Below, one piece after another: positions 7,069-58,914 of a DNA stretch of 64,000 nt. This DNA is from Patescibacteria group bacterium (lineage in GTDB: Bacteria > Patescibacteriota > Minisyncoccia > UBA6257 > JAKLIH01): NCBI GenBank assembly GCA_022709715.1, contig JAKLIH010000001.1:64225-128224 (forward strand). The letters are read 5' to 3'. Position 1 is the first letter of the stretch. Every line of letters starts with the position of its first letter. Made by a program: the position numbers and the translations under genes. A model generated the notes under the pieces. The model had not been told where the DNA came from and searched no databases. It saw nothing but the letters and a program-made list of their open reading frames with translations.

Positions 7069-7104
7069 AATTATTGAAGTTATAAAATAATTATAATGAA
7101 TTTG

Positions 7105-7142
7105 TGGAGCTAAGGAGAATCGAACTCCTGACCTTTACAATG
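7105..7142 (-). pseudogene. duplicated 3' part of tRNA-Ala (no 5' half)
   Basis: 42-nt direct repeat 7101-7142 = 7161-7202, 18 nt apart. Confidence 0.85.
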
Positions 7143-7164
7143 TCCCGATTTTATGGGTTATTTG

Positions 7165-7237
7165 TGGAGCTAAGGAGAATCGAACTCCTGACCTTTACAA
7201 TGCGAATGTAACGCTCTACCAACTGAGCTATAGCCCC
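7165..7237 (-). tRNA. tRNA-Ala (anticodon CGC)
   Basis: cloverleaf GGGGCTA...TAGCTCC-A with G3:U70; anticodon loop TTCGCAT; no encoded CCA. Confidence 0.9.
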
Positions 7238-8323: not shown

Positions 8324-8333
8324 ATTTTGCACC

Positions 8334-8952
8334 ATGTCGCAAAATATTCAGAAACAAAAGTGCGTGACACTTTATACAATGTCGCAAAATAATGCGTGAC
8401 AAGTGAAAATGTCACGCGCGTGACACTTTGACTACGTTTTCCGACTTTTAATATAAAAATTATTGCGAAATGTCACACGCGTGACAATTCAAAAGCAATC
8501 TCAAAGGTCAAATATCAAAACTCAAAAGTATAAGTCAAAGATCAAAAATTTTAATACTCAGCAAAACATAAATGATTTCAAAGTGTCACGCCTACCTACT
8601 GTCAGGCAGGCGCGTGACATTTTGATTATTAAATCGAATTTATGGTTTAAACTAATAATAATTTAGTTTGCAGATCAAAAATACATCCTTATTTTATATA
8701 AATTGAAATTTTAATATTTGCGAATTGTCACGCGCGTGACAATTCGCAATTTTTTGTTTTTTAATTACTAATTATTATTTGCCAATTACTCTTTAGTTTT
8801 TACCCCTTCCTTCATAAAGGATGGGGATTTTTAAGATTTGATTTATATTTTTGATTTTTGATTTTTGATTTAGTTGTTGAATTGTCACGCGCGTGACAAT
8901 TCAAAACCGATGTCGCAAAATATTCAGAAACAAAAGTGCGTGACACTTTATA
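8334..8952. mobile_element. 533-bp non-coding element flanked by perfect 43-nt direct repeats
   Basis: DR 8334-8376 = 8910-8952. The interior carries five TGTCACGCGCGTGACA-type palindromes (8410-8425, 8471-8486, 8584-8619 split by a 20-nt insert, 8720-8747, 8877-8904) and inverted TCAAAA modules. Confidence 0.5.
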
Positions 8953-12625: not shown

Positions 12626-13240
12626 AATCCCGCTTAACTGTTTTAAAACAGTTAAGCTCCACACCAACCAAAGGTTGGTGTGGGGACATGTTTTTTATCT
12701 TTAATTTTTGAGTTTCTTTAGGGGGCTAGCCCCTGCCTACCGGCAGGCAGGCCCACACCAACTTTCATTAAGCTTCAAGAGATTTCTTTATACAATGTAG
12801 GATACTAAATTAACCTTTGTTTATATTCTTTAAAAGTTGTGGTCTTTAATTTTTGAGATTTGATTTATATTTTTGACCCCGCTTCGCCTGCCTACCGGCA
12901 GGCAGGCTCCACACCAAGTTTGCACTAGTCATTTTGATATTAATACTAAGCAATACTAATCATTTAAAATACTAATTCATCAGCAAACTTGGTGTGGGGG
13001 CATGCTTTTGAGATTTGAGTTTTGAGATTTTTTAGTGGAGGTGAAAGTGGGCCCCCACACCAAGTCTTGTTTATATTTTTAACCCAACACCACTTTTAAA
13101 AGTGGTGTTGGGTTAAAAATTGGTAGAAGTTTTACGATATATAAAAAGCACCTCTCTCAAGATGCTATATAATTATTGCGAGTATCGTTTATAAATCTTT
13201 CGCTTCTTTCGAAGCTTAACAAGACTTGGTGTGGGGGTGA
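12626..13240. repeat. intergenic block of nested palindromes and A-tract modules
   Basis: 26-nt perfect palindrome 12632-12657; CCACACC.../...GGTGTGG hairpins; GCCTGCC-TACC-GGCAGGC hairpins; 130-nt element 12877-13000; 186-nt hairpin 13052-13237 with nested inner hairpins. Confidence 0.85.
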
Positions 13241-13243
13241 AGG

Positions 13244-13315
13244 TGGACGTGGGAGGGATCGAACCTCCGACCTCTGTCTTATCAGGACAGCGTTCTACCA
13301 CTGAACTACACGTCC
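13244..13315 (-). tRNA. tRNA-Ile (anticodon GAT)
   Basis: cloverleaf GGACGTG...CACGTCC-A; anticodon loop CTGATAA. Confidence 0.9.
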
Positions 13316-22074: not shown

Positions 22075-22520
22075 ATAAAAATCCCCCTCTTTTAAAAGTT
22101 GATTACAACTTTTTAAAAAAGGAGGCCAAGCTCCCTCCTTTAAAATCGCCCCCGACAACCAACCGAAGGTTGGTGTGGGGACTAGCAATATTTTTGCAAA
22201 ACAAAAATATTTGATACAAAAGCGATTTCTAAAGAAGGGGGTAAAACTCCCTCCTTTAAAACTCAAGCGTTTTTCAAACGCAAAGATTCAAAGGAGTTTG
22301 TAAAGAAGGGGGTAAAATATTTAACAAAAATACTCCATTTTACGAATCATAAATGGTTCTTAAAAGAGGGAGAGTAAACCCCCTCTTTTAAAAATTGGGC
22401 GATTAAAATCGCAATTAGGATAACTGAACAAAAAAGATTAATAAAATATTTAATAAAAATTCTCTCGATATAAAAGTTGTACCCTTAACAACTTTTAAAA
22501 GAGGGGGTAAATCAAAAATT
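22075..22520. repeat. block of CCCTCTTTTAAAA / TTTTAAAAGAGGG palindrome modules ending at the clpP SD
   Basis: modules homologous to 34740-34900 and 63136-63262. Confidence 0.8.
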
Positions 22521-30804: not shown

Positions 30805-30872
30805 ATTATAACATTTTTAATATAAAATGTCAATGTTGCGCATCAAGTATGCTAAAATCTAGACGAAATATT
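30805..30872. promoter_or_regulatory. shared bidirectional promoter module, copy Y
   Basis: minus strand perfect TTGACA (30828-30833)-17-TATAAT (30805-30810); plus strand TGcTAAAAT within 30842-30872. Confidence 0.65.
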
Positions 30873-31043
30873 AATCAGAACGGTACCTGGTACCGTTCTG
30901 ATTAAAGCAAAGGTTAAGTCACATTTTTAAAACCATAACAGGTTCGGAATCAAGTTCCGAACCTGTTATGGTTTGATCACAACGCTGCCTGGCAGTGTTA
31001 TATTATAAATTGTTATTTTTTAATAATTTAATATTTCGTCTAT
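30873..31043. repeat. three perfect hairpins enclosed by a 13-bp long-range stem
   Basis: TAGACGAAATATT (30870-30883 approx) pairs with AATATTTCGTCTA (31030-31043 approx). Inner stems AATCAGAACGGTACC, AACCATAACAGGTTCGGAA (about 19 bp) and AACGCTGCC/GGCAGTGTT. Confidence 0.6.
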
Positions 31044-33787: not shown

Positions 33788-33790
33788 CTA

Positions 33791-34160
33791 ACAATTAAAT
33801 CAAATCTCAAAAGTCAAAAGTCAAATCTGAAAATCAAAAATTTAAAAATATAAATATATTTAATCATAAAACAATGATAGTCGCTCATAACCTTTACTGG
33901 GTGTGGGGGCTAGCCCCGCTTCGCCTGCCTACCGGCAGGCAGGCTCCACGACTAACCAAAGGTTAGTGTGGGGGCTGGCCCACAATTAAATCAAAAATTA
34001 AAGATAAAAAAGAGATGTAAATGGTAAATGGTAATTAGTAATATAAAGAGTAATACAATTGTAAGACGATTGTAAAGAGTAAGAAGTAAATAGTAAGCAG
34101 TAAATCAATCAATAGACGGTTATTAATTACTATTTTCTACTTACTAATTACGCATTTATT
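33791..34160. repeat. tRNA-trailer repeat block (A-tract module, CCACAC hairpins, GTAA-phased module)
   Basis: 50-nt unit 33791-33840 recurs at 34468-34517 and 34608-34657; GCCTGCC hairpin at about 33925-33946. Confidence 0.8.
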
Positions 34161-34173
34161 GCCGAGGTGGTGA
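34161..34173 (+). pseudogene. 13-nt fragment identical to the 5' end of tRNA-Leu
   Basis: GCCGAGGTGGTGA matches 34383-34395. Confidence 0.5.
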
Positions 34174-34304
34174 CCCGACAACCTATTAACTTTAATTTTG
34201 GGTCAATTTGCTTTAGTTGTTAGATAACACTCTCGTGCAATAATATGTTCTTTAAATATTGCTAATATTGGCAAAATTATTCAAAAATTGATAAATCAAT
34301 TTTT

Positions 34305-34382
34305 ACAAAGTTTCTAGGTGTCTGGGTAGTCATTTGGAACATTAATTTGTTTTAGATAGCTCAGCCCTATAATATTCTTTAT
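34305..34382 (+). promoter_or_regulatory. 78-nt conserved tRNA-Leu upstream block, copy 1 (includes TATAAT at 34368-34373)
   Basis: 3 mismatches versus 62955-63032. Confidence 0.7.
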
Positions 34383-34467
34383 GCCGAGGTGGTGAAATTG
34401 GTAGACACGCAAGTTTTAGGAGCTTGTGCTTTACAGCATGCGAGTTCGAGTCTCGCCCTCGGCACCA
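34383..34467 (+). tRNA. tRNA-Leu (anticodon TAG), CCA encoded
   Basis: long variable arm; anticodon loop TTTAGGA; 3' GGCACCA. Confidence 0.9.
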
Positions 34468-34934
34468 ACAATTAAATCAAATCTCAAAAGTCAAAAGTCA
34501 AATCTGAAAATCAAAAATGTAAAAATTGAAAAACAAAATTAAAAAATAGAAATATATTTAAATACTAACCACTCAAAAACTTTTCTGAGTGTGGGGGCTA
34601 GCCCCCAACAAATAAATCAAATCTCAAAAGTCAAAAGTCAAATCTGAAAATCAAAACTTTTTAAATGAAATACCGATAAAAAACTCAAAACTCAAATCTC
34701 AAAAGTCAAATCCATAAATCAAAGATCAAATATCAAAACCCCCCCTTCTTTAAAACTCAAGCGTTTTTCAAACGCAGAGATTTAAAAGAGTTTGTAAAGA
34801 AGGAGATAAAGCCCCCTCTTTTAAAATCGCAATATTTTTGCAAAACAAAAATATTTAATACAAAAGCGATTTCTAAAGAAGGTGGTAAAAGAAAAATAAA
34901 AAGTGATTAGTAGATAACTACTAATCACTTTTTT
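34468..34934. repeat. A-tract modules, CCCTCTTTTAAAA palindrome modules and a bidirectional terminator (34898-34934)
   Basis: modules homologous to 22140-22320. Confidence 0.8.
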
Positions 34935-38106: not shown

Positions 38107-38400
38107 CAGGCAAAAAGAGTAATACAATGGTAATGCAATAGTAAAACGGTAGTAAAACGATAGTAAAGAGTAAGAAGTAAGTAGCAATTGGTAATAAAAA
38201 GAGCAAAGAGTAATACAATGATAAAGAGTAAGAAGTAAATGGTAATTGGTAATACAAAGAGTAATACAATACCAATAAAAAATTAAAGATTAAAAATAAA
38301 AAATAATAATACCCACCACGACTAACCAAAGGTTAGTGTGGGGGGCTAGCAATTGTAAGACGATGGTAATAAAATACCAATCAAATTAATTTAAAACATT
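38107..38400. repeat. GTAA-phased low-complexity module plus CCACC...GTGTGGGG hairpin
   Basis: runs of 11-nt words beginning GTAA; hairpin at about 38306-38340; produces spurious ORFs 37984-38329. Confidence 0.8.
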
Positions 38401-40224: not shown

Positions 40225-40500
40225 AAAATAAGTCAAATCTCAAAAGTCAAAAATCAAAAATATAAATCAAAAATTAAAAATTAAAGATAAAAAACAATAG
40301 TAAAGCAGTGGTAAAGCAATGGTAAAACGATTGTAATACAATAGTAAGACCCCCACACTAACCTTTGGTTAGTGTGGGGGCTAGCAATATTCTAATACTC
40401 TAATAACCCTGCCTACCGGCAGGCAATATGAAACAATGGTTGGTATCTCTTGCTTTATGATTAAAAATATGATAGAATACTAATCGATTTAAATAAAATA
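40225..40500. repeat. composite intergenic module (A-tract, GTAA-phased, CCCACAC hairpin, CCTGCC hairpin)
   Basis: same module order as at 33791-34160 and 38107-38345. Confidence 0.8.
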
Positions 40501-44954: not shown

Positions 44955-45166
44955 GAAAAAGAGTAATACCCACCACGACCAACCAGAGGTTGGTGTGGAG
45001 GCTAGCAATTGTAAAGAGTAAGAAGTAATTTGGAAATACAAAAATAGCCCTAACGGGCTATTTTTTTGTCTTTAATAAGTTTTAGGTTTTTAATTAAATA
45101 CCACTGTTGTATTTTATTTATTTTTTTGTTAAAATATCAGGGTAATAAATATTAAAAGTTATCTTT

Positions 45167-52042: not shown

Positions 52043-52468
52043 ATGAAAAAAATACTTTTACTAATTATATTGTCTTTATCTATTTTAGCCAATGTTAATA
52101 TAGTAATGGCTCAAACAGCGGCTACAACTACGAATGATTTTGTGGTATTAGAAAATCCAGTGGGAGCTGGAAATATTTGAGCAATTGTTAATAGAGCCAT
52201 AAATCTGTTGTTCACAGTTTCTTTATATGCGGGACTGGTGTTAATTATTTGAGCTGGTTGAGTGTTGATAACTTCGCAGGGTGATTCTGGAAAAACCAAA
52301 GATGCCACCAAGATTATAACTTCGGTTTTAATTGGTATTGCGGTTATATTATTGGCTAGATTCATCATTTCAACCGTTTATTATATTGTAACTGGTAATC
52401 CTGGAGGGGTGCCGGATTTAAACAATACGAAAACTACTTTTCACTGATTATTAAGTAATTTTATCTAA
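52043..52468 (+). CDS. VirB2/TrbC-like pilin-family protein, paralog 2
   Basis: signal peptide; TSQGDSGKTKDA loop between two TM helices. Confidence 0.6.
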
Positions 52469-52555
52469 ATAGCCGTTAAGTAGTTGCTTTTTTAAAAAAA
52501 ATTATATATAATAATAGTAATTTAAAAGGTCGTAATAAAAAATTAAATGTTTTTT

Positions 52556-52939
52556 ATGAAATTTTTAAAAAGTTTTGCTATCGGTTTGTTAATTTTATCA
52601 TTACCATTGGCGGGGCTAGCTCAAGAGGCCTGATTAGATGAAATGCCCAACTATATGGAAAGTGCTCCGGACGCAAATAGTTTTAATATATTTAGCTTTA
52701 TTAACAAGCTTATCAATTGATTGTTTTATGCTTTATTAGTTGTAGCGCTGGTTATGATTTTAATGGTTGCCTATACCTATATAACGGCTGGAGGAGAATC
52801 GGATAAAACTTCTAAAGCCGGGAAGAATTTAGGTTTTATATTATTTGGTATTGCTATTGCCTTATTAGCTAAAGGATTGATTTATTTAACGTGTTTAATC
52901 GTTGGCAGCTCAGAGATTTGTACATTCAAATTTAATTAA
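52556..52939 (+). CDS. VirB2/TrbC-like pilin-family protein, paralog 3
   Basis: ITAGGESDKTSKAGKN loop; LLAKGLIYL helix shared with paralog 4. Confidence 0.6.
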
Positions 52940-52967
52940 AAATTTAATAAAAATTTAAATAAAATAT

Positions 52968-53330
52968 ATGAAAAGATTTTTGTCTATTTTTATGTTGGCA
53001 CTATTGGTTTTGCCATTAGGTGTATCGGCTATACCTGAAGCACCTTCTAAATTACCGGAGACTTTTGCTACAACAGATGATTTATTTAACTATATTCGTA
53101 TTGCTCTTAATTGGATTTTTTATGCGTTACTAGTATTAGCTTTGTTCTACATTTTGCTTATTGCCATCAATTATGTGACTCAAGGTGGTAGTGGCGGAGC
53201 TGACAGTGTTAAGGATAATGGTAAAAAGTTATCGTATATTCTTTTGGGTATTGCATTAGCTTTAATTGCTAAAGGATTAGTTTATGTAGTTTGTTATTTA
53301 GTATCCGGAGCCGGATATTGCAAATACTAA
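52968..53330 (+). CDS. VirB2/TrbC-like pilin-family protein, paralog 4
   Basis: VTQGGSGGADSVKDNGKK loop; terminator at 53342-53372. Confidence 0.6.
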   Translation: MKRFLSIFMLALLVLPLGVSAIPEAPSKLPETFATTDDLFNYIRIALNWIFYALLVLALFYILLIAINYVTQGGSGGADSVKDNGKKLSYILLGIALALIAKGLVYVVCYLVSGAGYCKY

Positions 53331-54592: not shown

Positions 54593-54773
54593 TGGTAAAA
54601 TTTGATTTCTAATGAATAATGTTTGTTGTGTTTAACCATTTTTAAATCCCTTTTCAATCCAAAATTCTAAGCTCGTTTAGGAATGAGAGATCCCGCCTAC
54701 CATAGATAGGCGTAGCGGGACACCCACACTATTGTTATTTTTCTAAGAAAGATACTTTTGGTTAGATTGTTTG

Positions 54774-54846
54774 AGGTCACTGTGGGAATTGCACCCACGA
54801 ATAACGGTTTTGCAGACCGCAGCGTTAGCTACTTCGCCAAGTGACC
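54774..54846 (-). tRNA. tRNA-Cys (anticodon GCA)
   Basis: GGTCACT...AGTGACC-T; anticodon loop CTGCAAA. Confidence 0.85.
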
Positions 54847-54929
54847 ATATTTGATTTTGATCAATTCTTTTTGTAGGTGCTTTGAAATATCTATATTTAA
54901 ATTATATCAAATTTATATTATTATTCAAG

Positions 54930-55229
54930 TTATTTTTCTTGAACTAGCAATAATTTTATTCTGGGAGCCATGCGACATCTTAAATGTTTATTCAAATATT
55001 GCTGGATGTGATAAATATCTTTTTCGATTTCAGGAAAGACAACTAATTCTTTTTCTTTTGGAAAAATTGATAAATAAATTTTAGCTGAATCCATTTTGTC
55101 ATTAAGAACAACGTCTACAACTGTAATAAGAGTAGATCTATCGGTGTAATCGTTAGTTTCAATGTAATTAGCAATAATTTTACCAATTTCACCTGATCTT
55201 AATAATTGAGTTTTTTCTCGATTATCCAT
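54930..55229 (-). CDS. rbfA: ribosome-binding factor A
   Basis: RbfA-like sequence; follows infB. Confidence 0.85.
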   Translation of the reverse strand: MDNREKTQLLRSGEIGKIIANYIETNDYTDRSTLITVVDVVLNDKMDSAKIYLSIFPKEKELVVFPEIEKDIYHIQQYLNKHLRCRMAPRIKLLLVQEK

Positions 55230-55231
55230 AT

Positions 55232-56713
55232 TTAAATATAAAATTTTAATAAATCGTTAGTTTCGATTATAGTTTTTGAATCAATCATTAATCCGCATTC
55301 ATTGATGCTACCTAAAGAGTTTACTTTTTGTTTTTGACATTGAATGCCAACAATTTTACCCTTGCCAATATCTTGATTATCGCGTTCAATGGAAAATTGA
55401 TCGTTAATATTTATTTTACCATCAAAAACTTCTCCACCGATTACTTGATAATCTTTAACATTATTAAATTTTGCTAAAATTTTTACTTGACCAACTATTT
55501 TGGGTTTTTCTTCTTCTTGGCTTAAAACATCGTTTTCAATTTGTTCTAAGATTTCATAAATAGTATCGCCATAATATATTTTAATATTTTTGGTTTCAAT
55601 AAAATTATTAATATCATTTTCGCTTTTCATACGAAAATTAATAATAGCAGATTTAGTTAAATCGGCTAATTTTACATCTTTCTCATTAATATTGCCAATA
55701 TTGTTATCTATAATTTTAAAACTAACATTTAAATTTTTAGCTAAAACTTGTAAGCTATGAATCAAGGCTTCACATGATCCAATACAATCGGTTTTGACCA
55801 AAATATTAATCACTTTTTCAGTATTTTCGCCAATAACTTGATTGCGACAAAAATCAATGGCTATATTTTGTTTTAAGCTATTTATTAATTCATCGGTTAT
55901 AACATCGCCAGCTATAAATTCACTACCCGATTCAGGCAAATCATTAAAACCAACGACAATGGCAGGGGAAGAAAATGTTAGAGTTGATTTATTTTTGCCT
56001 AAAAAGTCTTTTAACATTTTAATTTTCCCATCGGTATTTGAGGTTACAATATTGTCACCAATATGTAGTGTTCCATCTTTTATGATTAGTGTGGCGGTAA
56101 AACCACATTTAGCATCCATGTGTGATTCTAACACAAAACCACGAGCAATATTGTTTGGGTTGGCTTTGGCTTCGGCTAAATCCGATAATAAAATAATCAT
56201 TTCTAATAAATCATCCACATTTGTTCCGTCTTTAGCCGATATTTCAATACAGGGCACATTACCACCTCGACCTTCAATAAATATATCATGCTGAGCCAGT
56301 TCATTTTTGACTTTTTCTACATTGGCGTTTGGACGATCGATTTTATTTATAGCCACAATAAAAGGAATATCGTTAACACGAATATGCTCTAAAGCTTCTT
56401 GAGTTTGAGGTTTAAAGCCTTCATCTGCCGCGATAATTAAAATAGCAATATCAGCGATTTTAGCCCCCCTAGATCTTAAAGATGAAAAAGCTTCGTGCCC
56501 CGGTGTATCTAAAAAGGTAATTTTTCTTTTTTGATTTTCAACATCAATTTCAATTTCATAAGCAGCAATATGTTGAGTGATATTACCACTTTCAACCAAA
56601 ATAGACTTGTTATGTCTAATATAAGACAACAAGGTAGTTTTGCCATGATCAATATGGCCGGTAACCACTACAATTGGTGGTCTTGGAACTGATTCTTTAT
56701 TTTTAATAGGCAT
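55232..56713 (-). CDS. infB: translation initiation factor IF-2 (short form, 493 aa)
   Basis: GHIDHGKTTLL, DTPGHEAF, NKID GTPase motifs. Confidence 0.95.
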   Translation of the reverse strand: MPIKNKESVPRPPIVVVTGHIDHGKTTLLSYIRHNKSILVESGNITQHIAAYEIEIDVENQKRKITFLDTPGHEAFSSLRSRGAKIADIAILIIAADEGFKPQTQEALEHIRVNDIPFIVAINKIDRPNANVEKVKNELAQHDIFIEGRGGNVPCIEISAKDGTNVDDLLEMIILLSDLAEAKANPNNIARGFVLESHMDAKCGFTATLIIKDGTLHIGDNIVTSNTDGKIKMLKDFLGKNKSTLTFSSPAIVVGFNDLPESGSEFIAGDVITDELINSLKQNIAIDFCRNQVIGENTEKVINILVKTDCIGSCEALIHSLQVLAKNLNVSFKIIDNNIGNINEKDVKLADLTKSAIINFRMKSENDINNFIETKNIKIYYGDTIYEILEQIENDVLSQEEEKPKIVGQVKILAKFNNVKDYQVIGGEVFDGKININDQFSIERDNQDIGKGKIVGIQCQKQKVNSLGSINECGLMIDSKTIIETNDLLKFYI

Positions 56714-56739
56714 TGTAATTATTTAATCAAATCTATTTT

Positions 56740-57540
56740 AATTGTGTAATGTAATTTTACACCAAATGGTATTGAAAGTCAAGCATAGGAAGAAAGATAA
56801 AAGAAAAGCAATGGTAAAACAGTAGTAAAACAATGGCAAAACAATTGTAAGACAATTTGGAAGAGTAAGAAGAAAGAGCAAATAGTAATTAAAAAATAAA
56901 GAGTAATTGGTAATGAAAAGAGTAAAGAGTAAATGGTAAAAAAAGAGCAATATGAAAAGAAAGACAATAGTAAAACCCCCACACCCAGAAAGGTTTAGAT
57001 TAAAAATAAAATTTTTAATCAGGAAATGAATGAATCCAATTTATAATTATACCTTCAATTTGAACGTTTAAACTAATAAAACAATGTTAATCACTCACAA
57101 CCTTTACTGGGTGTGGGGACTAGCAATAGTAAAACCCACCGCAACTAACCAAAGGTTAGTGTGGGGGTTGTCCCGCTTCGCCTGCCTACCGGCAGGCAGG
57201 CTCCACACCAAGTTTGCGCTAGCCATTTAAATGTTAATACAAAGCAATACCAATCATTTAAAATATTAATTTATTAGCAAACTTGGTGTGGGGATCAACT
57301 GTTTGTACATCTTAGTTTTCGAACAAAGGTGATCGTTTGAAAATTAAGATACAAACACTTGACCCCCACACTCAGAAAGTTTAAGGTTAAAAATTCTATT
57401 TTTAACCGTAGAACGATTGAACTTGCTATATAACATGTATTTTAATCAGAATGCTTAACTACAAAACATTACGTTTGTCACTCAAAAACTTTTCTGAGTG
57501 TGGGGGTTGATTTTTTGGGTAAATGTTATTATAATATACT
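56740..57540. repeat. 800-nt gene-free block of GTAA modules and large nested hairpins
   Basis: hairpins 56975-57118 and 57363-57506 (CCCCACAC.../...GTGTGGGG arms, 100-nt-plus interiors); 130-nt element 57172-57293. Confidence 0.85.
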
Positions 57541-57582
57541 TAAGAAATCGAAATTATTTTAATAAAAAAATAATAAATAATT

Positions 57583-58914
57583 ATGATTGACCCAAACAAT
57601 GCCAACAATTTAAATCCACAAAATGTAAATAACAATACTTCTGAACCAATCGATCCTAGCTTTTTGCCAAAAGATTCAAATGTTTATATCCGAACCATGA
57701 ACACTGATTTAACTGACTTAAAGTCGAGGGGAGGTGAAGCCTTGCCTTATGTAGAAACACCTTCGCCAATTAATAATATGCCTAGCATAAATGTTGGACA
57801 AGAGATAGCAAAACCGATTGATCCGATAAATCCTCCACCAATAATTAATCCCGCTCCTTCAACAGATTTTTCAAATATTACTCAGGTTAACCAACCAGTT
57901 AGTCCTAATATAGGTGGAATGGTTGATCAAAGTTTAAACAATGAGTTTAATATTCCACAAACAACCAACGATCATTCAACTTTAGAGGGGATACAATCAA
58001 AAATTAATGAATTAAATAGCGGTATTAATAATCCTAACAAAAATAATACAACTGATAATCTTAGTGCTAATTTAAATGATTCTTTGAATAAATTAATCGC
58101 TCCTGAAGAATTTAGCCCATTGTCTAACGCTGATTTAAATTCAACTCCGCCCAAAAGCAAAAACAAATTATTAGTTTTGGTATTATTAATTATTTTAATT
58201 GTATCTTTAATAGCAGTTTGGTTTTTTATAATTAGACCCAAAATGTTATCACCAAAGGTTAGTTTCAAACCAACTACTAACACCAGTTTATTAGCGCCAG
58301 CTACAACTGTTACCACACTAAAGCCAACACCATTTATTACGATTAAAGATGGCTATCAGGCCAATAATTTAGATATCGATGTATCTAAATCGCCAGAAAT
58401 TGTCACTCAAATTAGATCGGAAGCTAATAATTTATTGCCAGTTGGTGAAGTTAAAATAATTATGCCAAAAATTAAAAACCAATTTTTAACTTCTTCTGAA
58501 ATCGTTAATGCTTTTGTTGATAATATTCCACCATCGTTACTAAATAATTTAGATGAAAAATACTTAGTTTATAGTTTTTACGGTGAAGTTCATCCGGCTT
58601 TAGGCATAGTTTTGACCGTTGATAATAATGGGCTAGATCAAATTAAAGCTGATTTTTTAACTTGAGAAAAGAATCGAGAAATTGTTAAAAGCACTTATGA
58701 TCTTTGATTGTTTACAACTAAAGCCTCGACATCAAAAGCATTCAAGGAAAGAGAATACTTGGGTGCTAGCATAAGGCATTTTGATTATCCGGGAAACGAA
58801 GCTTCGTTTGTATACGCTTTTTATCAAAATAATATTATTCTTTCGACGTCAAATGAATCGATAGATGCAGCTATAAATCTTTTACAAAATCCAAATGCAT
58901 CAGTGGGACAATAA
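57583..58914 (+). CDS. hypothetical protein (Asn/Pro-rich N-terminus, one TM, C-terminal domain)
   Basis: two pieces in frame via TGA. Confidence 0.6.

What the first reader, a model, noticed from the sequence alone, without database searches (positions are those of the whole stretch)
12626..13240. Nested palindromes: conserved outer arms with variable or inserted cores, in several families
Intergenic DNA here and at 22075-22520, 33791-34934, 38107-38400, 40225-40500, 44955-45040 and 56740-57540 is built from a few palindrome families. Their outer arms are conserved, while interiors range from a 4-nt loop to more than 130 nt holding further hairpins. Family 1 has CCCCCACAC(C/T)NA.../...GTGTGGGGG arms, for example 12658-12688 with a 4-nt loop and 13052-13237 with a 150-nt interior. 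Family 2 has CCCCCTCTTTTAAAAGTTG/CAACTTTTAAAAGAGGGGG arms. Family 3 is GCCTGCC-TACC-GGCAGGC, often preceded by CCCGCTTCG. Family 4 is GGGGCTAGCCCC. One family-3 hairpin sits exactly at the centre of a TGTCACGC|GCGTGACA palindrome (8592-8611). This points to insertion into palindrome centres or MITE-like elements with conserved terminal inverted repeats, yet I found no transposase or RAYT-like gene in the window.
Basis: partly seen in the sequence, partly recalled or inferred. Interest (0 to 1): 0.6.

Follow-up and report, generated by a model that had tools for sequence, protein, structure and literature searches.

The report
Nested mobile hairpin repeats in Patescibacteria
The intergenic DNA of this tiny, stop-codon-recoded bacterium is packed with small hairpin-shaped repeats that share the same ends but have different middles; they behave like miniature transposons that land beside tRNA genes and inside one another, and no enzyme that moves them was found.

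Summary
All four palindrome families are real and far above chance: CCCCCACAC occurs 84 times in the 0.9-Mb genome against 2 for the reversed control.

Family 1 is a set of discrete non-coding elements of about 30, 95, 142, 186 and 320 nt. They share 9-20-nt terminal inverted repeats but have unrelated interiors.

The same intergenic sites are 1-49 nt long and empty in same-genus genomes that lack the motif.

The motif is patchily spread over the order and phylum. In other genomes (G024, G040, G037 and others) the hairpins are flanked by perfect 4-5-bp target-site duplications, often inside the loop of another palindrome.

In this genome no duplication is detectable. Nine of 54 tRNA genes are followed directly by a family-1 arm.

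Family 3 is an independent 18-20-nt insert found in the centres of other palindromes. Family 4 is only a junction.

Two RAYT-like genes exist outside the window. One is flanked by a fifth palindrome family (23 copies), not by family 1. No DDE, Cas1 or TnpB gene was found.

Verdict: MITE/REP-like mobile palindromes, a new variant of a known kind, with the transposase unidentified. Earlier scan notes on this genome described other hairpin modules, not this family.

The parts
12632..12696 (+). Small palindrome GCTTAACTGTTTTAAAACAGTTAAGC followed by a family-1 short hairpin (12657-12685). The hairpin has an ACATGTTTTTT tail and is terminator-like.
   Evidence: The same module pair recurs at C20:59100-59157 and C42:28134-28190.
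12722..12750 (+). Family-4 junction GGGGGCTAGCCC followed by the family-3 core CTGCCTACCGGCAGGCAG (12733-12750). The core is inserted in the C-run of a family-1 arm.
   Evidence: the context GCTAGCC|F3|GCCCACACC occurs 14 times in the genome.
12751..12830 (-). Truncated end (one arm only) of a 320-nt class C family-1 element.
   Evidence: I2. Compared with the class C right end seen.
12877..13005 (+). Class B composite: CCCCGCTTCG, then the family-3 insert (12888-12905), then a 94-nt family-1 element (12907-13000), then CATGC.
   Evidence: There are 8-11 copies. Copies without the family-3 insert exist (C42:46264, C81:305).
13052..13237 (+). Class E family-1 element, 186 nt, with 20-nt perfect arms. 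It holds an inner perfect palindrome at 13075-13120. The element lies 4 nt from the 3' end of tRNA-Ile(GAU) (13242-13315, minus strand). It is bounded by an imperfect ~10-nt direct repeat, GTGAARGTGG.
   Evidence: The whole 12626-13241 block is absent in G003 and G004.
8592..8611 (+). 20-nt family-3 variant (CTACCTACTGTCAGGCAGGC) inserted at the exact centre of a TGTCACGC|GCGTGACA palindrome.
   Evidence: Uninterrupted copies lie at about 8412, 8472, 8727 and 8880.
22083..22520 (+). Family-2 cluster with CCCCCTCTTTTAAAAG / CTTTTAAAAGAGGGGG arms in short and ~125-nt forms. It also holds one family-1 short hairpin at 22149-22180. It lies directly upstream of clpP.
   Evidence: The orthologous spacer is 6-49 nt in all five relatives, including G005.
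33789..34382 (+). 594-nt mosaic between tRNA-Arg and tRNA-Leu. In order it holds: TCAAAAG-type low-complexity repeats; a half class A end (to 33909); CTAGC-CCCGCTTCG; family 3 (33925-33942); a short hairpin (33944-33974); GTAA-type repeats; and a 13-nt copy of the tRNA-Leu 5' end (34161-34173) abutting a degenerate arm CCCGACAACC.
   Evidence: The two tRNA genes are 1-2 nt apart in G001, G003 and G004.
34545..34890 (+). Half class A2 end (to 34597) plus CTAGC, then low-complexity repeats and family-2 modules.
38312..38350 (+). Asymmetric short hairpin (D2 subfamily: CCCACCACGACTAACC...GGTTAGTGTGGGGGG) plus a CTAGC tail. It is embedded in GTAA-type repeats 3' of tRNA-Gly(UCC).
   Evidence: The site is empty (15-24 nt) in G001, G003 and G004.
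40350..40421 (+). Perfect short hairpin (40350-40380) plus CTAGC, followed by a family-3 hairpin (about 40404-40421).
   Evidence: Absent in G003, G004 and G005 at this site.
44969..45006 (+). D2-type short hairpin plus a CTAGC tail.
   Evidence: The spacer is about 100 nt shorter in G003 and G004.
56976..57506 (+). Array of: class A1 (56976-57118); D2 hairpin (about 57137-57170); CCCGCTTCG plus family 3 (57182-57199); class B (57201-57293); another palindrome (57290-57367); class A2 (57363-57506).
30866..30910 (.). Copy of family 5, the palindrome that flanks the RAYT-like gene on contig C2: TTAATCAGAACGGTACCTGGTACCGTTCTGATTAA.
   Evidence: 23 copies genome-wide.

Best explanation
Families 1-3 are non-autonomous mobile palindromic elements. 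They are MITE-like in anatomy and resemble REP/BIME or neisserial NIME mosaics in their arrangement.

Shown:
- Family 1 is defined by a conserved terminus, CCCCCACAC(C/T)...(G/A)GTGTGGGGG. Arm complementarity runs to about 20 nt within a class.
- The interior is arbitrary and specific to a lineage.
- The shortest members are nothing but the two arms.

Inferred: a trans-acting enzyme that recognises these ends inserts the elements into intergenic DNA. Preferred sites are directly after the discriminator base of tRNA genes and the loops of existing hairpins. Repeated hits at the same sites would build the nested and mosaic clusters.

Shown:
- In related genomes insertion duplicates 4-5 bp of target, mostly TTTA/TAAA.
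- In this genome the amplified units carry extra conserved tails (RCTAGC, CATGC, CCCCGCTTCG) and show no clean duplication.

Family 3 is a separate 18-20-nt hairpin insert that lands in other palindromes. Family 4 is a junction.

Some copies, namely a hairpin followed by a T-run, probably act secondarily as terminators. This is inferred.

Not shown: the enzyme itself, current activity, and whether DNA or RNA structure is what matters.
For: Excess over chance and structure:
- The motifs are far above chance and form discrete multi-copy classes.
- The elements are extragenic. Family-1 arms lie in 49 of 674 intergenic regions, whose median length is 460 nt against 69 nt for the rest. Only 8 of 125 arms fall inside ORF calls that my filter kept.

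Empty orthologous sites in same-genus genomes that have 0-1 copies of the motif:
- 22-30 nt against 648 at tRNA-Ile.
- 15-24 against ~310, 4-5 against ~225, and 66-76 against ~175 at three further sites.
- 1-2 against 594 between tRNA-Arg and tRNA-Leu.
- 6-49 against 451 upstream of clpP, empty even in the closest relative G005.

Turnover between close relatives: G005, L049 and L050 carry different content at the same sites.

Patchy distribution of the 9-mer: G000 84, G005 89, G006 24, G024 58, G040 24; four other same-genus genomes 0-1. Perfect short hairpins occur in 13 of 401 phylum genomes against 0 for the reversed control.

Target-site duplications in other genomes:
- G024: 13 of 22 elements with unique flanks have perfect 4-bp direct repeats. 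The shuffle control gave a mean of 2.2 and a maximum of 7 in 2000 shuffles.
- G040: 2 of 2 with TTTA.
- G037: 2 of 5 with 4 bp and 2 of 5 with 3 bp.
- Four of 15 elements from other families have 4-5 bp. One of these is nested in another family-1 element.

Nested insertions in this genome.

Shared ends, different middles: arms are shared between G000, G005 and L049, but interiors give no BLAST match.

A family-2 sub-module is 81-88% identical at non-orthologous loci of G005 and G006, which is higher than gene identity with G006.
Against: - There is no significant target-site duplication in this genome: 3 elements with a 4-bp repeat against 0.94 expected.
- No element with these ends carries a gene.
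- No DDE_Tnp_1, rve, DDE_Tnp_4, IS1380-type, Cas1 or TnpB gene was found in the family-1-rich genomes. DDE_Tnp_1 did match in G006 and G012, but those IS loci carry no family-1 arm.
- Copies within a class are 66-97% identical, not near-identical, so a recent burst is not shown.
- At tRNA genes the inserts are bounded by 10-14-nt copies of the tRNA end. This fits an integrase better than a 4-bp staggered cut.
- At one orthologous site, tRNA-Gly(CCC)-element-tRNA-Thr, G000 and G005 keep the arms but not the interior. That could equally mean selection on the arms of a resident structure.
Confidence: 0.65

Rival explanations
1. REP/REPIN-RAYT system. The family-1 hairpins are REP-type sequences cut and spread as single-stranded DNA by one of the two RAYT-like Y1 (HUH) transposases in the genome.
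For: - Two Y1_Tnp genes have an HUH motif and the Y-x-H-x-N-P tyrosine motif. Their best NCBIfam hit is REP-associated tyrosine transposase, though below its cut-off.
- One family-1 half-arm lies about 70 nt upstream of the C14 gene.
- Y1 genes were found in 4 of the 7 genomes with 12 or more copies of the motif, against 8 of the other 34.
- The absence of a target-site duplication in this genome fits a Y1 mechanism.
- The asymmetric ends, with a conserved tail on one side, recall IS200/IS605 ends.
Against: - No RAYT-like gene in this genome or in 11 relatives is flanked by family-1 arms.
- The C2 gene is flanked by a different palindrome, family 5 (23 copies). The G024 genes are flanked by yet another.
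- G005, G006 and G040 have many family-1 copies and no detected Y1 gene.
- The 4-5-bp duplications in relatives are not expected of Y1 transposition.
- There is no conserved GTAG-type 5' tetranucleotide.
Confidence: 0.12
2. Resident functional structures. The arms are terminators, tRNA-trailer processing or stability hairpins, or protein-binding sites. They are kept by selection and multiplied by duplication or recombination rather than by transposition.
For: - The junction with nine tRNA genes is precise.
- tRNA-adjacent spacers are enriched: 16 of 77 against 33 of 597.
- Arms are conserved but the interior is not at an orthologous G000/G005 site.
- Compensatory changes keep both helices of the 142-nt class.
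- One short hairpin scores as terminator-like.
- The family-2 long form always sits just upstream of start codons.
Against: - Congeners do without them at every site examined.
- There is no bias for convergent, tandem or divergent spacers, and class A orientation is mixed.
- Most copies lack a T-run. No terminator-like site was called in the 56.7-57.6-kb array.
- No Rfam family matches.
- Target-site duplications occur in relatives.
Confidence: 0.12
3. Scars of site-specific integration. The clusters are decayed remains of small integrative elements or cassettes that entered tRNA genes through a tyrosine integrase, with the family-1 arms as recombinase-binding sites.
For: - A 14-nt copy of the tRNA-Gly 3' end lies at the far side of the insert in G005, L049 and L050.
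- A 13-nt copy of the tRNA-Leu 5' end lies at 34161-34173.
- An ~10-nt repeat bounds the element at tRNA-Ile.
- A 41-nt duplicate of tRNA-Ala lies at 7104-7142.
- An integrase fragment sits on the 571-nt contig C100, and a tyrosine recombinase lies 1.4 kb from a tRNA-Arg cluster on C64.
- Earlier notes describe foreign gene cassettes in tRNA-adjacent islands.
Against: - Most elements are not next to tRNA genes.
- Head-to-tail arm junctions are rare, 8 in the genome.
- Recombinases leave no 4-5-bp duplications.
- The C64 recombinase looks like housekeeping Xer, judged from its N-terminus; this was not tested further.
Confidence: 0.08
4. Palindromes made in place by template switching or fold-back synthesis during replication, with no element moving.
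For: Perfect arms and apparent compensatory changes could arise by quasi-palindrome correction. This follows from my own knowledge of that mechanism and was not tested here.
Against: - The asymmetric D2 subfamily (a mismatch plus a bulge in the left arm) is copied faithfully more than 10 times instead of being corrected.
- Identical interiors recur at unlinked loci.
- The same 9-mer occurs across families of the phylum.
Confidence: 0.03

Closest known systems
Bacterial MITEs (for example Correia elements of Neisseria, RUP/BOX of pneumococci, and Tn3- or IS-derived miniature elements)
   Same: Short, non-coding, extragenic and multi-copy, with conserved terminal inverted repeats. Insertion polymorphism is seen between relatives. 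Short target-site duplications are seen (in relatives). Some copies carry a satellite-like repeat, as in the Porphyromonas MITE of PMC4596501.
   Different: No cognate IS or transposase was found. Members can be as short as 25-36 bp, that is, two arms only. Several unrelated interiors share one terminus. The same terminus is shared across families of a phylum. The elements are tightly joined to tRNA 3' ends. There is no clean duplication in this genome.
REP / REPIN / BIME with RAYT (enterobacteria, pseudomonads)
   Same: GC-rich extragenic hairpins of 25-40 nt in mosaic clusters with other conserved motifs. RAYT-like Y1 genes are present in the genome. No duplication is seen in this genome.
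   Different: The RAYT-like genes are flanked by other palindromes (family 5), not by family 1. No GTAG-type leader is present. Long forms have 60-290-nt interiors. Relatives carry 4-5-bp duplications.
Neisserial intergenic mosaic elements (dRS3 inverted repeats flanking variable RS units); recalled from my own knowledge
   Same: A short conserved inverted repeat brackets many different core sequences, building intergenic mosaics that vary between strains.
   Different: dRS3 is a recombination target for phage-type or IS110-type enzymes. No such enzyme or phage link was found here. The viral-contig scan gave background levels only.
Mobile GC clusters and palindromic elements of AT-rich organelle genomes (yeast mitochondrial GC clusters, Volvox organelle palindromes); recalled from my own knowledge
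   Same: Very short GC-rich hairpins scattered through AT-rich intergenic DNA. They insert into one another, carry 2-4-nt flanking repeats, and have no known enzyme.
   Different: Those occur in organelles and have unrelated sequences. The link to tRNA 3' ends and the families of long interiors are not features of those elements, as far as I recall.
Integron attC sites
   Same: Imperfect palindromes with conserved outer arms and a variable-length centre. Gene cassettes lie in the same genome islands (earlier notes).
   Different: There is no tandem same-orientation array. The RYYYAAC/GTTRRRY cores are not conserved across classes. No IntI was identified. The elements are dispersed at about 49 loci in both orientations.

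Membership tests
MITE | Short non-coding element with terminal inverted repeats conserved among many dispersed copies | tested here: met
   Classes of 29-324 nt have 13-25-nt arms. There are 22 copies of the 142-nt class. All lie outside genes.
MITE | Target-site duplication flanking each copy | tested here: inconclusive
   Not met in this genome: 3 against 0.94 expected. Only constant flanks such as TTTGA or GTAAAA appear on both sides. Met in G024 (13 of 22; shuffle control mean 2.2), G040 (2 of 2), G037, and 4 of 15 elements from other families.
MITE | Presence/absence polymorphism at orthologous sites | tested here: met
   Six sites are empty in G001, G003 and G004. One is also empty in G005 and G006. 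The comparison is between species of one genus, not between strains.
MITE | A cognate autonomous element or transposase with the same ends | tested here: not met
   There are no multi-copy coding repeats except a pilin-like gene family. No DDE_Tnp_1, rve, DDE_Tnp_4, DDE_Tnp_1_4, Cas1 or TnpB was found in G000, G005 or G024. The IS loci of G006 and G012 carry no family-1 arm. All genomes are draft MAGs, so absence is not proven.
REP-RAYT | RAYT (Y1 HUH transposase) gene flanked by inverted copies of the repeat | tested here: not met
   For family 1 only a half-arm lies upstream of the C14 gene, and none at 11 relatives' loci. The feature is met for family 5 at the C2 gene, with three flanking copies.
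REP-RAYT | Conserved 5' tetranucleotide (GTAG-type) next to a 20-40-nt imperfect palindrome | tested here: not met
   Left flanks are TAAAAC or the tRNA discriminator, and right flanks are RCTAGC or CATGC. No GTAG is present.
Integron attC / cassette array | Tandem array of cassettes with attC sites in one orientation beside intI, with R''/R' core sites RYYYAAC/GTTRRRY | tested here: not met
   The elements are dispersed in 49 spacers in both orientations. Only classes C and D contain CCAAC...GTTGG, which matches 5 of 7 core positions; classes A and B differ. The only tyrosine recombinases are one Xer-like gene and one fragment. The IntI-specific insertion was not examined.
Casposon-derived miniature elements | Cas1 casposase in the genome; 14-15-bp duplication at a tRNA 3' end | tested here: not met
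   A 14-nt tRNA-Gly end duplication exists in G005, L049 and L050. No Cas1 was found in any family-1-rich genome.
Intrinsic terminator | GC-rich stem-loop followed directly by a T-run, placed at gene 3' ends | tested here: inconclusive
   The short hairpin at 12657-12685 qualifies. None was called in 56700-57600. There is no bias for 3' ends of genes.
Known RNA families (Rfam 15) | Match at or near a family's gathering score | tested here: not met
   Only tRNAs reach the threshold. Relaxed scans give only generic hairpin (miRNA-precursor) matches far below threshold.
TIGR-Tas arrays | Tandem ~36-nt units (edge repeat, spacer, loop repeat, spacer) beside a Nop-domain gene | tested here: not met
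   The architecture described in PMC12045711 is a tandem array. The elements here are dispersed single units with no 36-nt period. A Tas gene was not searched for.

The most novel reading that the evidence does not exclude
A phylum-wide family of ultra-short hairpin transposons in Patescibacteria. The minimal members are 25-36 bp, just two 9-12-bp ends, and duplicate 4-5 bp of target. They would be moved by an enzyme outside the known transposase families, or by one supplied in trans from another replicon or from the host organism. The enzyme would read a hairpin end and prefer tRNA 3' ends and hairpin loops. Longer members would arise when arbitrary DNA is captured between the two ends.
Probability: 0.2. 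Interest if true: 0.75.

Novelty: new variant of a known kind. Interest (0 to 1): 0.55.

Why it matters
Patescibacteria have among the smallest, most streamlined bacterial genomes and are usually described as poor in mobile DNA. Here about 10% of a 0.9-Mb genome is repeated sequence, and spacers that hold these elements are about seven times longer than the rest.

The elements break the assembly. They mark the hot spots, next to tRNA genes, where foreign gene cassettes also sit. At least one lies at a rearrangement breakpoint.

One 9-nt terminus shared across distant families, combined with clean target-site duplications and no recognisable transposase, gives a concrete handle for finding the mobilising enzyme. 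It also offers a marker for tracing DNA exchange among uncultured symbionts.

Tried and rejected
- Genetic code 25 was tried first. Code 4 was then adopted, because the tRNA(UCA) shares its acceptor 3' end with tRNA-Trp(CCA) and earlier notes say the same.
- Rfam at the gathering threshold and at relaxed thresholds gave nothing but tRNAs and generic hairpins.
- Promoter and terminator scans showed no excess in the arrays.
- A recombination-site reading of GTGTGGGGG-CTAG-CCCCCACAC was dropped. Only 8 head-to-tail junctions exist in the genome.
- Long multi-copy segments turned out to be a pilin-like / FGE-domain gene family, not IS elements.
- No RAYT gene flanks hold family 1, in this genome or in 11 relatives.
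- A scan of viral contigs for the hairpin gave 99 hits against 67 for the reversed control, that is, background.
- Searches for DDE_Tnp_1, rve, DDE_Tnp_4, DDE_Tnp_1_4, Cas1 and TnpB were negative or unlinked to the elements.
- Target-site duplication in this genome, tested against shuffled flank pairings, gave no signal.
- Literature searches found no description of such repeats in Patescibacteria and none of the 9-mer.
- TIGR arrays were considered and rejected on architecture.
Full report
**Setting.** The window is C1:64225-128224 of a 900,236-bp draft genome in 107 contigs, with 30% G+C and 98.8% estimated completeness. Core genes are broken only at TGA, and reading TGA as a sense codon restores them. 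The tRNA with anticodon UCA ends in the same acceptor 3' strand (CCCCTGCC) as tRNA-Trp(CCA). I therefore used code 4, as earlier scan notes also state. Public titles of close relatives call them Patescibacteria / Saccharibacteria MAGs.

**Check of the observation.** The motifs are not chance. Against a reversed-sequence control, CCCCCACAC occurs 84 times against 2. The family-2 16-mer occurs 15 against 0. The family-3 14-mer core occurs 35 against 0. GGGGCTAGCCCC occurs 7 against 0. An unbiased census of inverted repeats puts the family-1 arm first among GC-rich arms. Self-comparison puts 10.5% of the genome in repeats and 5.3% in repeats with three or more partners.

**Anatomy of family 1.** Family 1 is not a continuum. 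It falls into discrete classes with conserved interiors:
- D: 29-37-nt hairpins, about 25 copies. They include an asymmetric subfamily, CCACCACGACCAACC...GGTTGGTGTGGGGG-CTAGC, which is copied faithfully more than 10 times.
- B: 93-97 nt, 8-11 copies.
- A: 139-148 nt, 22 copies in two subfamilies.
- E: 186 nt, one copy, at 13052-13237.
- C: about 320 nt, 3-5 copies.

In class A, a 19-bp outer helix and a 10-bp inner hairpin are kept in all copies. Three pairs switch by double changes between the subfamilies: CG/TA, TA/GC and GC/AT. The roughly 80-nt remainder is AT-rich and has no predicted structure.

The ends are asymmetric in this genome. The left side abuts TAAAAC or a tRNA. The right side carries RCTAGC, CATGC(T)TTT or family 3.

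Family 4 is simply a right arm plus CTAG(C) running into another C-run.

**Family 3.** This family has an 18-nt core, CTGCCTACCGGCAGGCAG, in 27 copies. It behaves as an independent insert and occurs in these contexts:
- Inside the C-run of family-1 arms, as GCTAGCC|F3|GCCCACACC, 14 times.
- In the class B leader, where copies without it exist.
- In the centre of a GGACGGCC..GGCCGTCC hairpin.
- In the centre of TGTCACGC|GCGTGACA at 8592-8611.
- Inside a tRNA-Leu pseudogene.

**Family 2.** This family has the same short/long architecture. Its ~125-nt form ends 12-15 nt before start codons of unrelated genes, clpP among them.

**Where the elements sit.** Family-1 arms occupy 49 of 674 intergenic regions. 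Those regions have a median length of 460 nt, against 69 nt for the rest. There is no preference for convergent, tandem or divergent spacers. Class A orientation relative to neighbouring genes is mixed.

tRNA-adjacent spacers are enriched, 16 of 77 against 33 of 597. Nine of 54 tRNA genes are followed by a left arm. In eight it starts directly after the discriminator base, so that the C-run replaces the CCA position. At tRNA-Ile there is a 4-nt spacer. Arms are mildly enriched near contig ends, 12% against 7% of bases.

**Comparison with relatives.** The 9-mer is abundant in G000 (84) and in one same-genus genome, G005 (89). It is absent or nearly so (0-1) in four other same-genus genomes. It is abundant again in G006 (24), G024 (58), G040 (24), G037 (12) and G038 (13), which belong to other genera and families of the order.

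Across 401 genomes sampled from the phylum, perfect short hairpins occur in 13. The reversed control occurs in none.

At six orthologous sites the congeners that lack the motif have almost no spacer:

| Site | Relatives (nt) | G000 (nt) |
|---|---|---|
| tRNA-Ile | 22-30 | 648 |
| After tRNA-Gly | 15-24 | ~310 |
| Upstream of rpsP | 4-5 | ~225 |
| 44.9 kb | 66-76 | ~175 |
| Between tRNA-Arg and tRNA-Leu | 1-2 | 594 |
| Upstream of clpP | 6-49 | 451 |

The clpP site is empty in all five relatives, including G005.

The closest relatives (G005 and metagenome contigs L049 and L050, at 88-90% protein identity) do carry family-1 elements, but with different content at the same sites.

The interiors of G000 classes A, B, C and E have no BLAST match in the G005, G006 or G037 loci that I fetched. 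The arms, by contrast, are shared out to about 18 nt. At the orthologous site tRNA-Gly(CCC)-element-tRNA-Thr, G000 and G005 have the same arms and CTAGCC tail but unalignable interiors.

**Target-site duplications.** In G024 (47% G+C), 13 of 22 elements with distinct flanks are bordered by perfect 4-bp direct repeats: TTTA/TAAA, TTCA/TGAA, CTTG/CAAG and TATA. Shuffled flank pairings gave a mean of 2.2 and never more than 7 in 2000 trials.

Some G024 copies are paralogues of composites in which the hairpin sits in the loop of a larger palindrome. I estimate about ten independent events.

Both short hairpins of G040 have TTTA on each side. In G037, two of five ~139-nt elements have TAAA and two have 3-nt repeats.

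Among 15 hairpins from other families of the phylum, three have 4-bp repeats. One has a 5-bp repeat (CTTAC) and is nested inside another family-1 element.

In G000 itself the same test gives no signal, 3 against 0.94 expected. What is seen instead are constant flanks on both sides of extended units. One example is TTTGA around CCCCGCTTCG...GGGGGCATGC. Another is GTAAAA-type repeats around class A/D plus CTAGC. These cannot be told apart from target preference or co-mobilised tails.

At tRNA genes the inserts are bounded by longer copies of the tRNA end:
- 14 nt of tRNA-Gly in G005, L049 and L050.
- 13 nt of the tRNA-Leu 5' end at 34161-34173.
- An imperfect 10-mer at tRNA-Ile.

**Search for the enzyme.** The genome has two RAYT-like Y1 genes outside the window (C14 and C2). 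Both have an HUH motif and the tyrosine motif, and both score below the NCBIfam equivalog cut-off.

The C2 gene is flanked by three copies of a fifth palindrome, ATCCCAACGGTACCWGGTACCGTTGGGAT. This palindrome has 23 copies genome-wide. Its core is invariant and its outer stem varies in a compensatory way. One copy lies in the window at 30866-30910. This is a classical REP-RAYT arrangement, but for family 5.

The C14 gene has only half a family-1 arm upstream. No Y1 locus in 11 relatives holds the family-1 8-mer. In G024 the Y1 genes are flanked by yet another palindrome. Co-occurrence of Y1 genes with family 1 is weak: 4 of 7 against 8 of 34.

Other searches:
- No DDE_Tnp_1, rve, DDE_Tnp_4, IS1380-type, Cas1 or TnpB gene is present in G000, G005 or G024.
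- The DDE elements of G006 and G012 lack the arm.
- Tyrosine recombinases are one Xer-like gene on C64, 1.4 kb from a tRNA-Arg cluster, and one fragment on a 571-nt contig.
- The only long multi-copy genes are pilin-like.

All of these genomes are draft MAGs, so multi-copy or extrachromosomal genes may be missing.

**Interpretation.** The best reading is that these are non-autonomous mobile palindromic elements. The conserved part is the terminal inverted repeat. The interior is cargo that differs by lineage. New copies land after tRNA genes and in the loops of existing hairpins, which produces the nested and mosaic appearance.

This is shown for the family as a whole by target-site duplications in several genomes, empty sites and patchy distribution. 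For this genome it is inferred from empty sites, nesting and copy structure.

The enzyme is unknown. The longer tRNA-end duplications hint that a second process also shapes the tRNA-adjacent islands, namely integrase-type insertion of the islands that also hold foreign cassettes. Secondary use of some copies as terminators is plausible but untested.

**Limits.** Comparisons are between species at 67-83% DNA identity, not between strains. My gene calls are simple ORF calls. The count of independent duplication events in G024 is my estimate.

Noticed in passing
G000:C2:19496-20430 (outside the window); window 30866-30910: A genuine REP-RAYT pair. A 238-aa RAYT-like gene is flanked by three copies of ATCCCAACGGTACCWGGTACCGTTGGGAT. 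That palindrome has 23 copies in the genome, with an invariant core and an outer stem that varies in a compensatory way. One copy lies in the window next to the GC-rich 517-aa orphan gene.
   Followed up: partly
window 8330-8900: Five copies of the perfect 16-bp palindrome TGTCACGCGCGTGACA lie within about 500 bp, one of them split by the family-3 insert. A repeated GTCGCAAAATATTCAGAAACAAAAGTGCGTGACACTTTAT segment is also present. The arrangement looks like an operator array for an unknown regulator.
   Followed up: no
window 7104-7142 and 7163-7203: A 41-nt duplicate of the 3' part of tRNA-Ala(CGC) lies 60 nt beyond the gene. This is the usual signature of integrase-mediated insertion at a tRNA gene. 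It sits next to small GC-richer ORFs.
   Followed up: no
window about 54700-56790: The segment with tRNA-Cys and infB (IF-2) is inverted relative to G001, G003, G004 and G005. One breakpoint falls in the repeat cluster at 56783-57507.
   Followed up: partly
G000:C1:34921-35099 (outside the window): ARAGORN calls a tRNA with anticodon UUA, which would read the stop codon UAA, and an adjacent odd tRNA with a 2-nt anticodon call. Both share the same downstream sequence.
   Followed up: no
window 38108-38300, 56790-56960; G000:C64:13790-13880: Two low-complexity repeat types accompany the hairpins: GTAA-type units (about 11-12 nt, CAATAGTAAAAC) and TCAAAAG-type heptads. On C64 the GTAA type forms a perfect 11-nt tandem array of 8 units. 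They are absent from the empty sites of congeners.
   Followed up: partly
L050:3580-3870 (= G005:C28 end): A 144-nt unit containing a solo family-1 right arm is tandemly repeated three times between tRNA-Gly and the 14-nt copy of its 3' end.
   Followed up: no
G000 contigs C39, C34:1-974, C42:2470-3421 and 52112-53176, C97:33697-34680, C17:12001-12887, C27:4597-5174: Seven paralogues (75-85% DNA identity) of a gene for a prepilin-type N-terminus fused to an FGE-sulfatase-like C-terminus. Most lie at contig ends.
   Followed up: no
window 34155-34466: The ~310-nt unit made of the tRNA-Leu 5' fragment, a degenerate arm, a promoter region and tRNA-Leu(UAG) has four copies at 73-80% identity in G005. 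A tRNA-containing block seems to have multiplied there.
   Followed up: no
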